A stretch of DNA of 6,878 nt, from contig NW_021829179.1 in assembly GCF_006345805.1 (NCBI RefSeq), positions 1 to 6,878 on the forward strand, written 5' to 3'. Of the stretch, positions 1,092-5,653 are shown one piece after another (position 1 is the stretch's first letter; the number at the start of each line of letters is the position of its first letter). The notes beneath the pieces are model-generated. The model was not told the origin of the DNA, did not search any database, and saw only the letters and a list, made by a program, of their open reading frames with translations. The DNA is from Octopus sinensis (Eukaryota). Both the position numbers and the translations under genes were made by a program.

Positions 1092-1158
<67 letters not shown>

Positions 1159-1164
1159 ATCTAT

Positions 1165-1200
<36 letters not shown>

Positions 1201-1237
1201 TTATCTATCTTTCTATCTATTTATCTATCTATCTATC

Positions 1238-1308
<71 letters not shown>

Positions 1309-1320
1309 CTTTCTATCTAT

Positions 1321-1366
<46 letters not shown>

Positions 1367-1383
1367 GGCAATCTATCTATCTT

Positions 1384-1435
<52 letters not shown>
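1092..1435 (+). repeat. (TCTA)n = (GATA)n tetranucleotide microsatellite, about 86 units with TCTT/TTTA variants
   Basis: Read directly; it produces the (LSIY)n pseudo-ORFs. Confidence 0.98.
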
Positions 1436-1594
1436 GGGAGAGTTTACGAAAAAAGCAAAAGACGAAGACAGGTGGTGTACAAAACAAACAGATGTATTAG
1501 TATAACGCTCAGGAATAGGAAAAGTCTTTTACGTTTCGAGCCTACGCTCTTCTACAGAAAGGGACACAGAAAAAAAAAACAAGGAGAGAAAAAA
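1436..1594 (-). mobile_element. Short non-autonomous hammerhead-containing repeat (Penelope-like pLTR fragment / retrozyme-like), copy 1, embedded in a TCTA/TCTG microsatellite
   Basis: Non-simple island between (TCTA)n and (TCTG/TCTA)n. Shares ACGCTCAGGAA and TTT(T/A)ACGTTTCGAGC..GCTCTTC...CAGAAA with 2408-2613 and contains a hammerhead-like core on the minus strand. The family assignment is inference. Confidence 0.6.
1524..1565 (-). ncRNA. Minimal type I hammerhead ribozyme-like motif, variant core CUGUAGA (A6U)
   Basis: Minus strand reads GUC-CC-UUU CUGUAGA A GAGC-GUAG-GCUC GAAAC GUA AAAGAC. Stem II is 4 bp, stem I is CUUU/AAAG (or GUC..UUU/AAAGAC with a CC bulge), the NUH triplet is GUA and stem III is reduced to the palindrome ACGU. 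One core mismatch to CUGANGA. Confidence 0.55.
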
Positions 1595-1672
1595 GTCTGT
1601 CTATCTGTCTATCTGTCTATCTGTCTGTCTATCTGTCTATCTTTCTCTTTCTCTCTCTCTATCTCTCTCTCT
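1595..1672 (+). repeat. (TCTG/TCTA)n grading into (TC)n
   Basis: Read directly. Confidence 0.9.
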
Positions 1673-1689
1673 AAATAAATAAATATATA

Positions 1690-1719
1690 TGCGTGCGTGT
1701 GTGCGTGCGAGTGTGCGTG

Positions 1720-1763
<44 letters not shown>

Positions 1764-1782
1764 CGTGTGTGCGTGCGTATGT
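1690..1782. repeat. (TGCG)n/(TG)n microsatellite
   Basis: Pure (TG)n at about 1722-1755 flanked by TGCG units. Confidence 0.92.
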
Positions 1783-1862
1783 AGCTGACGTCATAAGAAT
1801 TTATTAACTTTAGACAGAGCGTGAAATAATTTTTCTATGTAATTGGGTTTCGCAGTACATAT

Positions 1863-1996
1863 AGACCGATAGAATAAGTACTAGGCTTACAAAGAATAAG
1901 TCCTGGGGGTCGATTTGCACGACTAAAGGCCGTGCTCCAGCATGGCCGCAGTCAAATGACTGAAACCAGTAAAAGAGTAAAAGAGTAAAAAGAGAG
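1863..1996 (+). mobile_element. 3' fragment (5'-truncated) of the tRNA-derived SINE, ending in a (GTAAAAGA)n tail
   Basis: Aligns closely with 4934-5043 (CCGATAGAATAAGTACT.GGCTTACAAAGAATAAG ... AGCATGGCCGCAGTCAAATGACTGAAAC). About three GTAAAAGA tail units at 1969-1993. Confidence 0.85.
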
Positions 1997-2407
1997 TATA
2001 TGTGTATGCGTGTGTATATAATGTCTGCATTTACGATTTACGTGTTATAATTATGTGTGTATAATTATGAATATGGGTGTGTGCGTGAATGCATGTATAA
2101 GCACGTATCTATGTCTATATCAATGTGTGATTGTTTATAAGTGGGAATGTAGAAATCCGTATGTAATACACATATTTAGGTTGAAAATGTGTATCTGTGT
2201 GATTGTAAGCACAAATGTGCACATCGTACATGTGTACACATGTCTTTCTACGCGTGTTTAAGATGGATAATGTGTTTTTTTACATTTCCAGAGAACAATT
2301 ACAAAATTATCTTTCTCGAAATTTCTATGAACTCTATCTATATCTACTACAGAGAAACTATGGGTGGATCTCAAGTAGATGTACGTATATACATAAATAT
2401 ATATATA

Positions 2408-2613
2408 GTTAATCCAAACATGAAAGCACAAAGAGAAAACACAACAACGCGAGGACGTGGAACAAGTATAGTGTTATTGGACGCTCAGGAAGGGAAAGAA
2501 AGAAGGAGGATTTAACGTTTCGAGCTGAGCTCTTCGTCAGAAACATAGGAAAAGGAAAGATCCAAAGAAGGGAAGACGGAGGAAAAAAATCGCCAACGGT
2601 ACACACGCGGTCA
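2408..2613 (-). mobile_element. Short non-autonomous hammerhead-containing repeat (Penelope-like pLTR fragment / retrozyme-like), copy 2, between (TA)n and (CA)n/(TA)n tracts
   Basis: Purine-rich island flanked by microsatellites; same motif order and orientation as 1436-1594. Boundaries are approximate. Confidence 0.6.
2510..2544 (-). ncRNA. Minimal type I hammerhead ribozyme motif with intact core CUGACGA...GAAA...UH
   Basis: Minus strand reads GUUU CUGACGA A GAGC-UCA-GCUC GAAAC GUU AAAU. Complete CUGANGA and GAAA boxes, 4-bp stem II, short stem I GUUU/AAAU, palindromic AACGUU in place of stem III. Predicted cleavage between 2514 and 2513. Confidence 0.7.
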
Positions 2614-2619
2614 TGAATA

Positions 2620-2652
2620 TACACACACACACACACACCACACATATATATA

Positions 2653-2705
<53 letters not shown>

Positions 2706-2761
2706 CTATATATATATATATATAAATATATATATATATATTATATACATATATATATATA
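2620..2761. repeat. (CA)n followed by (TA)n microsatellite
   Basis: Read directly. Confidence 0.95.
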
Positions 2762-4712: not shown

Positions 4713-5044
4713 TGGCTGTGTGGCTATGTGGTAAGAACATGGTTCCGGGTTCAGTCCCATTGCGTAGCACCTAGGGCAACTGTTTTCTATTATAGCCGAG
4801 GGCAACCAAAACCTTGTAGGTGGAAAGTGAAAGAAGCCTGTTGCATGTGTGTGTGTGTGTGTTTTTACCCCCTCCCCGCTTGAAACCGATGTTGGTGTGT
4901 TTACTTCCCCGTAACTTAGCGGTTCGGTAAAAGAGGCCGATAGAATAAGTACTGGGCTTACAAAGAATAAGCTCTAGGGTCGATTTATTCGACTAAAAGC
5001 GGTGCTCTAGCATGGCCGCAGTCAAATGACTGAAACAATAAAAA
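4713..5044 (+). mobile_element. Near full-length, diverged tRNA-derived CORE-like SINE with internal (TG)n and internal deletions
   Basis: A-box-like TGGCTGTGTGG/TGGCTATGTGG at 4713-4731, B box GGTTCAGTCCC at 4748-4758, CORE-like GCACCTAGGGCAACTG, internal (TG)n at about 4846-4862. The 5' half matches 5067-5234 and the 3' half matches 1863-1996. Confidence 0.85.
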
Positions 5045-5066
5045 CAATTATATATGTGTATATATA

Positions 5067-5234
5067 GGCGTAGGAGTGGCTGTGTGGTAAGTAGCTTGCT
5101 TACGAACCGCATGGGTTCAGTCCCACTGCATGGCACCTTGGGCAAGTGTCTTCTACTATAGCCTCGGGCCGACCAAATCCTTGTGAGTGGATTTGGTAAA
5201 CGGAAACTGAAAGAAGCCCGTCGTATATATGTAT
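5067..5234 (+). mobile_element. 5' half of the same SINE family (tRNA-like head plus CORE-like region), truncated at its internal microsatellite
   Basis: Starts GGCGTAGGAG. Pol III A box TGGCTGTGTGG at 5077-5087, B box GGTTCAGTCCC at 5114-5124, then ACCTTGGGCAAGTG resembling the MIR/CORE-SINE core motif. Colinear with 4721-4845. Confidence 0.88.
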
Positions 5235-5238
5235 ACGA

Positions 5239-5653
5239 ACACCAGAAGCAAAAGATTGCCTGATTTTCAAAAGGGATACATTGAGGGTCCCTCTGGGTGT
5301 GTAGCTCGACTTAACCAGCGTAAAATTGCACAAAACCTTGGGATTCCTCTTCCCATGGTTAACAGAATGTTTGTACAATTCCCAAGCAAAGAAATAGAAT
5401 CAACGGCATCCGGTTCAGGTCGACCTGGGTCTTCTGACATTGTGTCTTCGACCTGTCAAACGGATTATTGAAACAATATCTCTGTTGATGCTGCTGAGGA
5501 ATTCCAAATGAGTCGGAGGCACTTCTGTGAGGTATTTCCATCAACTTGACTGCGGAAGTGAAAACTAATAATATATTAACAAATTTGAAGTTCCAGAGAT
5601 AGTGTCTTTATAACGAGAGGTGTCTATTTATTTTTGAGGTGTCTATGAGTATA
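5239..5653 (+). pseudogene. Decayed, internally deleted Tc1/mariner DNA transposon: transposase N-terminal paired-like HTH region plus a possible right TIR remnant
   Basis: ORF 5229-5471 has RSKRLPDFQKGYIEG...LNQRKIAQNLGIPLPMVNRMFVQF...SGSGRP, i.e. first HTH plus the GRP(R)-type linker of Tc1 transposases (SGRP at 5415-5426). Frameshifted continuation LRPVKRIIE (5446-5472), SVDAAEEFQMS (5481-5513) and TSVRYFHQLDCG (5521-5556) resembles the second HTH. No DDE domain is visible. The end GGTGTCTATTTATTTTTG...ATGAGTA-TA looks like a Tc1 terminus. Confidence 0.7.

What the first reader, a model, noticed from the sequence alone, without database searches (positions are those of the whole stretch)
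1436..2613. Two divergent, co-oriented minimal hammerhead-ribozyme elements hidden between microsatellites
Seen: on the minus strand, 1524-1565 and 2510-2544 both read [N]UUU-CUGNNGA-A-GAGC-loop-GCUC-GAAAC-GUH-AAA[N]. Stem II is identical while its loop differs (GUAG vs UCA). Stem I stays paired with a changed outer pair (CUUU/AAAG vs GUUU/AAAU), and the flanks are only weakly alignable, which is the pattern expected from structural conservation. Established: type I hammerheads have the order stem I-CUGANGA-stem II-GAAA-stem III-UH-stem I, and minimal versions with almost no stem III occur in Penelope-like retroelement pLTRs and in non-autonomous retrozymes. Inference: these are two subfamilies of a small, non-coding, self-cleaving mobile RNA element (solo pLTR or retrozyme-like) that is probably abundant in this genome.
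Basis: partly seen in the sequence, partly recalled or inferred. Interest (0 to 1): 0.8.

Follow-up and report, generated by a model that had tools for sequence, protein, structure and literature searches.

The report
Penelope retroelement tails with variant hammerheads
The two motifs are the short tail ends of two related, very abundant Penelope-like jumping genes, each carrying a tiny hammerhead-ribozyme motif of a kind described in 2014; one family has a changed letter in the catalytic core, so it likely cuts poorly or only with help, and the copy ends suggest that the RNA is likely inserted uncut.

Summary
The motifs are real: a minimal hammerhead pattern matches 32,987 times in the genome, control 1. 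They are not a free-standing non-coding element. [quoted passage not shown] Long copies carry the motif in both flanking repeats, and the two proteins are 61% identical. Copies are dispersed, rarely tandem, and usually end in (TA)n; the pairing here is probably chance. This arrangement was published in 2014, and this scan found it before in other genomes. Two extras: (1) island A reads CUGUAGA, not CUGANGA; U6 is kept across all A subfamilies while position 7 takes all four bases, and 82 of the first 100 genome matches have A6U or U4C cores. (2) Copy 5' ends pile up 50-85 nt upstream of the ribozyme (30 of 36 B copies stop within 14 nt), not at the cleavage site (1 of 60 each), as expected if uncut transcripts are copied back to their start. 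Cleavage and the start site are untested.

The parts
1436..1595 (-). Family A solo pLTR end: 5'-truncated 3' terminus of a Neptune-type Penelope-like element; fixed 3' end at 1436, 5' end about 37 nt upstream of C3 (shorter than the family's commonest copies)
   Evidence: 1065 candidates, best 40 are 92-100% identical; 96% to L066, which continues into a GIY-YIG endonuclease
1526..1561 (-). Minimal type I hammerhead motif A with variant core CUGUAGA (A6U at 1554); stem I 4 bp, stem II 4 bp, palindromic ACGU in place of helix III; predicted cut 1530/1529
1506..1513 (-). CCTGAGCG block conserved between families A and B, about 77-85 nt from the element's 3' end; role unexplained
   Evidence: 91% A-vs-B identity against 33-44% around it
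2408..2613 (-). Family B solo pLTR end of a sister Penelope-like element; fixed 3' end at 2408, 5' end at 2613-2618, inside the family's pile-up of 5' ends
   Evidence: 514 candidates, best 41 are 92-100% identical; 91-92% to L148, L186, L187, L192, which have endonuclease sequence upstream
2510..2544 (-). Minimal type I hammerhead motif B with canonical CUGACGA core; predicted cut 2514/2513
2482..2489 (-). CCTGAGCG block of family B
1092..1435 (.). (TCTA)n microsatellite abutting the 3' end of A; a related (TCTG/TCTA)n tract at 1596-1672 abuts its 5' end: the insertion target
2614..2761 (.). (CA)n/(TA)n tract at the 5' end of B; a short (TA)n at 2400-2407 follows its 3' end
1838..2020 (+). 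Unrelated high-copy repeat piece between the islands (SINE-like; identity recalled); no PLE coding sequence anywhere in the window
   Evidence: up to 85 overlapping hits among 350 own-genome loci; tblastn with the PLE protein finds nothing

Best explanation
The two islands are independent insertions of the 3' ends (pseudo-LTRs) of two sister protein-coding Penelope-like retroelements, each carrying a minimal hammerhead motif, and were likely made when the element's reverse transcriptase primed at a nicked microsatellite and copied only about 160-210 nt of an uncut transcript. Shown: identity with the ends of RT-Cys linker-GIY-YIG elements; motif in both flanking repeats of long copies; fixed 3' ends, (TA)n targets, 5' ends piled up upstream of the motif. 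From published work on other PLEs: transcription starts inside the upstream pLTR; RT starts internally at the pLTR end on AT-rich nicks; minimal hammerheads cleave weakly and only as dimers or with protein help. Inferred (about 0.55): priming at the end of the upstream pLTR runs to the transcript's 5' end 70-85 nt before the motif, which explains the tens of thousands of short copies with both ends fixed. Inferred (about 0.6): the ribozyme is weak or conditional, above all in family A (A6U), and these solo copies are dead ends because they lack the downstream ORF-proximal RNA and a dimer partner.
For: A: L066 (96% to the island) runs into a GIY-YIG frame; 24 of 30 loci found with that endonuclease have an A-type end on the same strand within 1.5 kb downstream; L103, L104, L106 are pLTR-ORF-pLTR with the motif in both repeats 4.4-4.5 kb apart; RVT_1 above cutoff, E 1e-7. 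B: 5 of 30 longer copies show endonuclease sequence upstream within 1.5 kb; L148, L186, L187, L192 (91-92% to the island) have it 1.2-1.9 kb upstream, and L181/L182 have a B-type motif just before a 1008-codon open frame; A and B proteins 61% identical, differences 107/72/227 by codon position. Relatives at 47-51% protein identity in metagenome contigs carry a min-HHR just downstream (L313, L335, L349) nearly the same as the Acropora Neptune HHR in Fig. S3 of PMC4209133. 3' ends followed by a TA run in 39 of 50 (A) and 45 of 52 (B) copies with a locatable end, of 60 each. 5' ends in copies chosen only by a 3' 28-mer: B 30 of 36 at risk stop between -72 and -85 (0.10 per nt against 0.003 downstream); A 28 of 36 between -48 and -70; 51 of 60 in each keep the whole motif; 1 of 60 each at the cut site, 0.5-0.6 expected. 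No strong hairpin at the barrier (z 0.32 and -1.42).
Against: No read-level evidence for a start site or a cut. The Inr-like words (TCATTC in B1, TCAGTC in A1) are not conserved in the CCGACGA subfamilies, and in two further samples anchored on the motif about 7 of 20 (CCGACGA) and 10 of 20 (CTGTTGA) copies run well past the barrier (read by eye), so it is weaker there. The A counts at -31 to -47 are partly alignment stops in a variable CT repeat. Microhomology with (TA)n blurs 5' ends by a few bases. Only 4 of 30 B-endonuclease loci showed a B end within the 1.5 kb held (the B 3' UTR can exceed 2.3 kb), and three of the linked B loci were fetched because a B end was known nearby. GIY-YIG Pfam scores are below cutoff. 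Computed dimers do not form the helix III dimer.
Confidence: 0.8

Rival explanations
1. Same elements, but the short copies are ordinary 5' truncations of 3'-end-primed cDNA that stop at a sequence- or protein-caused RT block or at favoured microhomologies, not at a transcript start.
For: 5' truncation is typical of PLEs (PMC4209133, PMC8557442 passages); many junctions sit at TA/AT microhomologies; longer copies of all sizes exist; Inr word not conserved.
Against: A 30-fold jump in stopping rate over 14 nt at the same homologous place, 3-10 nt before a conserved ATG, in both families; no stable structure there.
Confidence: 0.3
2. The short forms are self-propagating non-autonomous elements (SINE-like or retrozyme, via circular RNA) that use the PLE protein in trans.
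For: Short copies far outnumber long ones and have two preferred ends; occasional tandem or inverted pairs (L064, L059); animal retrozymes are reported to derive from pLTRs (bioRxiv 10.64898/2026.07.22.740005, abstract to methods read).
Against: Tandem copies rare (1 of 60, 3 of 60); ends do not coincide with the cut site as circle-derived monomers would; each short subfamily examined has long ORF-linked counterparts at 91-96%; no shared flanks.
Confidence: 0.07
3. The family A motif no longer cleaves at all and is kept as a protein-binding or regulatory fold in the 5' leader.
For: A6 changes lower activity strongly in other hammerheads (A6C: PMC3088659, PMC7151607 passages); catalytic HHR mutants do not affect insertion of an anole PLE in vitro (PMC11167929 passages); copies are inserted uncut.
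Against: C3, G5, G8, A9, GAAA, GUH and the palindrome are kept while N7 (all four bases), N17 (A, U, C) and loop II vary, the pattern of a catalytic core.
Confidence: 0.35
4. The two co-oriented motifs form one functional unit (an LTR-retrozyme-like element or a heterodimeric ribozyme) around the 810 nt between them.
For: Same strand, 983 nt apart, both with the ACGU palindrome, so a heterodimer is sterically possible in a read-through RNA.
Against: Different families with their own ends and targets; only microsatellites and a common repeat lie between; from motif density alone about 1300 windows of this size hold two motifs.
Confidence: 0.02

Closest known systems
Minimal hammerheads (min-HHR) in pLTRs of metazoan Penelope-like elements (Cervera & De la Pena 2014, PMC4209133)
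   Same: Type I order, extra nucleotide between A9 and G10.1, G10.1-C11.1, palindromic 15.2-16.2 with no loop III, short stem I, U-rich 5' flank, thousands of solo copies, few in full elements
   Different: Family A has CUGUNGA (A6U) and part of family B has CCGACGA (U4C); none of the 56 representatives in their Fig. S3 has either, though their descriptor required the canonical letters. No cephalopod in their table.
Neptune-clade endonuclease-bearing PLEs (e.g. Acropora digitifera Neptune; clade features from PMC8557442, PMC3846280)
   Same: Single ORF, RT then CX4CxxC linker then C-terminal GIY-YIG with CxxC..H..H; DKG motif; partial tandem pLTR-ORF-pLTR; (TA)n target bias; protein relatives carry the Acropora Neptune HHR
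   Different: Long (0.8 to >2.3 kb) low-complexity 3' UTRs; very high share of 160-250 nt solo copies; clade not placed by a tree with named references
Non-LTR retrozymes of animals (Cervera & De la Pena 2020, PMC7229834)
   Same: Short, type I HHR, dispersed in an animal genome, related to pLTRs
   Different: Retrozymes are tandem 150-450 bp repeats with mostly canonical HHRs and make circRNAs; these copies are solo, minimal and continuous with a PLE ORF
Natural hammerhead core variants A6C (phage Bcep176) and U4C (viroid) (PMC3088659, PMC7151607)
   Same: Change at positions 6 or 4 of the CUGA turn with the rest of the core kept
   Different: Here A6U, in a dimer-type minimal HHR without tertiary contacts, in the majority of about 33,000 genomic copies

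Membership tests
min-HHR of PLEs | CUGANGA box | tested here: met
   Island B: CUGACGA
min-HHR of PLEs | CUGANGA box (island A) | tested here: not met
   CUGUAGA; U at position 6 in 76 of 77 distinct A copies, C in 1. A is a variant, not a strict member
min-HHR of PLEs | Bulged nucleotide, G10.1-C11.1, stem II, GAAA, palindromic 15.2-16.2, UH | tested here: met
   (G10.1-C11.1 and the GAAACGU box were required by the extraction pattern; inner stem II pairs kept in 71-75 of 77 and 75-78 of 83)
min-HHR of PLEs | Stem I with compensatory change | tested here: met
   4 bp; outer pair C-G in A (69 of 77), G-U/G-C/A-U in B (71 of 83); T-A, C-G, G-C in metagenome relatives. Counts are copies, not events; no R-scape test
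min-HHR of PLEs | Location in both pLTRs of an RT-EN element | tested here: met
   L103, L104, L106 for the A lineage; for B upstream (L181, L182) and downstream (L186, L187, L190-L192) positions seen in different copies
min-HHR of PLEs | Self-cleavage as dimer | not testable with these tools
   needs in vitro assay
Rfam hammerhead families | Covariance-model score | tested here: not met
   no hammerhead family among matches at E<=10
Neptune/Nematis-type EN+ PLE | RT followed by C-terminal GIY-YIG with CCHH | tested here: met
   RVT_1 E 1e-7 above cutoff, GIY-YIG E 0.002-0.02 below cutoff; motifs read from the sequence
Neptune/Nematis-type EN+ PLE | CX2-5CxxC linker between RT and EN | tested here: met
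   CSRPRCRTC (A) and CSRSRCNTC (B)
Neptune clade | Phylogenetic placement with named Neptune elements, apart from Nematis | tested here: inconclusive
   no tree with named references; indirect link through coral-type relatives bearing the Acropora Neptune HHR
Naiad/Chlamys or Hydra PLE | N-terminal EN, or DKT and no CCHH | tested here: not met
   EN is C-terminal, motif is DKG
Non-LTR retrozyme | Head-to-tail tandem units each with an HHR | tested here: not met
   1 of 60 and 3 of 60 with a same-strand neighbour block within 1 kb
Non-LTR retrozyme | Circular RNA | not testable with these tools
   only contigs of guessed RNA runs were available

The most novel reading that the evidence does not exclude
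These elements have been selected for a deliberately detuned ribozyme: the A6U core (and, independently, U4C) is kept across diverged, recently active subfamilies because cleavage must wait for the element's protein, a partner copy or a special ion, and the tens of thousands of solo copies that run from the transcript start to the RT start, through an intact cut site, are a genome-wide record that uncut RNA is the template in vivo.
Probability: 0.3. Interest if true: 0.6.

Novelty: new variant of a known kind. Interest (0 to 1): 0.33.

Why it matters
The kind is known, so the catch itself is ordinary. The value lies in an open question: what PLE hammerheads do. One in vitro study found cleavage dispensable for insertion. 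Here a sister pair of families gives a natural comparison (canonical core in B1, U4C in B2, A6U in A) with near-identical stems, and the copy ends give an in vivo readout that can be scaled to the whole genome. Descriptors that demand CUGANGA would miss about four fifths of these motifs, so min-HHR counts in such genomes may be far too low.

Tried and rejected
Rfam scans: no hammerhead family. Single-strand folding: no significant stability, and the monomer does not adopt the hammerhead fold; computed self-dimers pair stem II strands instead of helix III, so no thermodynamic support either way. Idea that many copies begin at the cut site: rejected (1 of 60 each). Idea that the CCTGAGCG block is an anti-ribozyme switch pairing with stem II: inconsistent (probability >=0.5 in 4 of 15 copies, <=0.23 in 11), and the block is absent from metagenome relatives. 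Hairpin as cause of the 5' barrier: not supported. Tandem candidates L061, L062, L065 were local duplications with flanks, not element arrays. Expression: no RNA holder listed on record; contigs of guessed RNA runs cover the pLTR and cross into the leader and ORF but cannot show starts, cuts or strand, and showed no splice joint: no evidence either way. Lunse et al. (PLE hammerhead variants that cleave as dimers) is not held; I saw only its citation and a review's summary (PMC6765202 passages), so A6U may be described there. Searches for A6U/CUGUNGA with hammerhead and for octopus + Penelope + hammerhead listed no paper that describes it. No solved-structure comparison and no tree with named PLE references were obtained.

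Full report
Observation. The window is a whole 6878-nt contig of a 2.72 Gb animal genome; its repeats look like octopus SINEs (recalled, no call names the organism). Both motifs lie on the minus strand as described: A with C3 at 1557 and N17 at 1530, B with C3 at 2540 and N17 at 2514. The canonical pattern matches once, at B, and in 0 of 200 shuffles. Rfam has no hammerhead hit and the folds are not unusually stable, as expected for motifs with no helix III.

Two abundant families. DNA searches returned 1065 and 514 candidates, the best 40 and 41 at 92-100% identity. Exact cores occur 2915 and 1745 times, exact 3' 28-mers 4009 and 1927 times, and a relaxed core pattern 32,987 times against 1 control match. 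Copies have a fixed 3' end, usually followed by a TA run (39 of 50 and 45 of 52 locatable ends among 60 each), and variable 5' ends. Island A spans 1436-1595 in a (GATA)n-type tract, island B 2408-2613 in (TA)n/(CA)n. Between them lie microsatellites and a common repeat; the window has no PLE coding sequence. About 1300 windows of this size should hold two motifs by density alone, so the pairing needs no explanation.

The parents. Walking upstream from a 96%-identical A copy (L066) led through a low-complexity UTR into a GIY-YIG endonuclease frame. Of 30 loci found with that peptide, 24 carry an A-type end on the same strand downstream. [quoted passage not shown] Nine such copies are 97.8-99.8% identical over RT-EN (chosen for intact frames, so biased young). 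For B, 5 of 30 longer copies had endonuclease sequence within 1.5 kb upstream; only 4 of 30 B-endonuclease loci reached a B end within the 1.5 kb held, because the UTR is longer; among 12 longer stretches 6 had a B end downstream, and L181 and L182 had a B-type motif before a 1008-codon open frame. The two proteins are 61% identical with most changes at third positions. Homologues at 44-57% are common in aquatic animal data but unnamed (577 hits among 8000 scored). Of 80 metagenome loci, 10 held a min-HHR; those downstream of the ORF in L313, L335 and L349 nearly match the Acropora digitifera Neptune HHR printed in Fig. S3 of PMC4209133. With the Cys linker that marks Neptune and Nematis (PMC8557442, passages), this points to Neptune; no tree was built.

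The ribozyme motif. Between A and B the GAAACGU box is 96% identical, the first box 70%, the flanks 33-44%; the outer stem I pair is C-G in A and G-U, G-C or A-U in B. Of the first 100 genome matches, counted by eye, 58 read CUGUNGA (N = A 12, U 25, C 15, G 6), 24 CCGACGA and 18 CUGANGA. U6 is kept in eight A subfamily representatives whose downstream flanks average 78% identity against 89% in the core. U4C also appears in 3 of 11 metagenome motifs, A6U in none. None of the 56 min-HHRs in Fig. S3 has either change, but that search required canonical letters. A6C and U4C lower activity in other hammerheads (PMC3088659 and PMC7151607, passages). Free variation at N7, N17 and loop II with a fixed rest argues that the fold is still selected; whether it cuts is untested.

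Where copies begin. In 60 copies per family taken in chromosome order by a 3' 28-mer alone, 51 of 60 in each keep the whole motif; 1 of 60 each begins at the cut site, as chance predicts (0.5-0.6). In B, 30 of the 36 copies that reach -72 stop by -85; in A, 28 of 36 stop between -48 and -70. The barrier lies a few bases before an ATG shared by both families, at TCATTC (B1) or TCAGTC (A1), which resemble an initiator (consensus recalled), and no hairpin explains it. It is weaker in two other subfamilies, where about 7 and 10 of 20 copies run on and the initiator word differs. Drosophila Penelope starts transcription inside the upstream repeat from an internal promoter (PMC2377424, passages), and the anole PLE primes internally at the pLTR end on AT-rich nicks and inserts mostly uncut RNA (PMC11167929, passages). 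Together these suggest that solo copies are cDNAs from the upstream pLTR end back to the transcript start. RNA data could not test this.

Comparison and verdict. Min-HHRs in PLE pLTRs, mostly as solo copies, weakly active as dimers, were described in PMC4209133 (parts 1-2 of 4 of the text and parts 1-2 of 3 of supplement 2 read; supplement 1 not available). Penelope-like families with recent insertions are reported in an octopus repeat annotation whose main text does not mention hammerheads (PMC13282606, passages). Retrozymes differ in being tandem (PMC7229834, passages; bioRxiv 10.64898/2026.07.22.740005, part 1 of 5). Solo pLTRs and an Inr-like word in pLTRs are noted in PMC3846280 (passages). 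Four earlier notes of this scan reach the same kind of verdict in other genomes. So B is a new member of a known kind and A a core variant of it. Lunse et al. and the supplements of PMC8557442 were not seen and may already hold the variant or the families. Interest 0.33.

Noticed in passing
window 1506-1513 and 2482-2489 (-); all A and B subfamilies: A CCTGAGCG block is 91% conserved between the families at a near-constant 77-85 nt from the 3' end; it may be a protein-binding site near the RT start; pairing with stem II was not consistently supported.
   Followed up: partly
L066, L103, L181, L192, L117 (alignment A2): Both families have an ATG 3-10 nt after the 5'-end pile-up followed by a stop within 0-4 codons: a conserved tiny upstream ORF at the presumed transcript start.
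   Followed up: no
window 5232-5465 (+): Short frame with a weak helix-turn-helix match (HTH_24, E 0.016), resembling the start of a Tc1/mariner transposase (recalled).
   Followed up: partly
window 4718-5236 and 1838-2020: High-copy SINE-like repeat pieces, up to 124 hits among 350 own-genome loci.
   Followed up: no
L059 1153-1699; L064 1054-1616: An inverted pair and a head-to-tail pair of solo B copies separated by (TA)n, typical PLE insertion structures; the tandem pair is 264 nt apart but carries changes in the core and stem II.
   Followed up: partly
L182 5678-6107, L094, L102, L138, L226, L427: A and B copies often sit directly beside or inside each other's TA tails, so the families seed targets for one another.
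   Followed up: no
L181 5160-7501; L189: The CCGACGA subfamily has a 3' UTR of more than 2.3 kb made largely of (CA)-rich repeats, a possible source of dispersed microsatellite-like DNA.
   Followed up: no
G000:C1:9737737-9737766: One match with a canonical box but a different stem II region, perhaps a third PLE family.
   Followed up: no
L150 3205-4779 (-): A more distant PLE (25-31% protein identity to family A) on the opposite strand.
   Followed up: no
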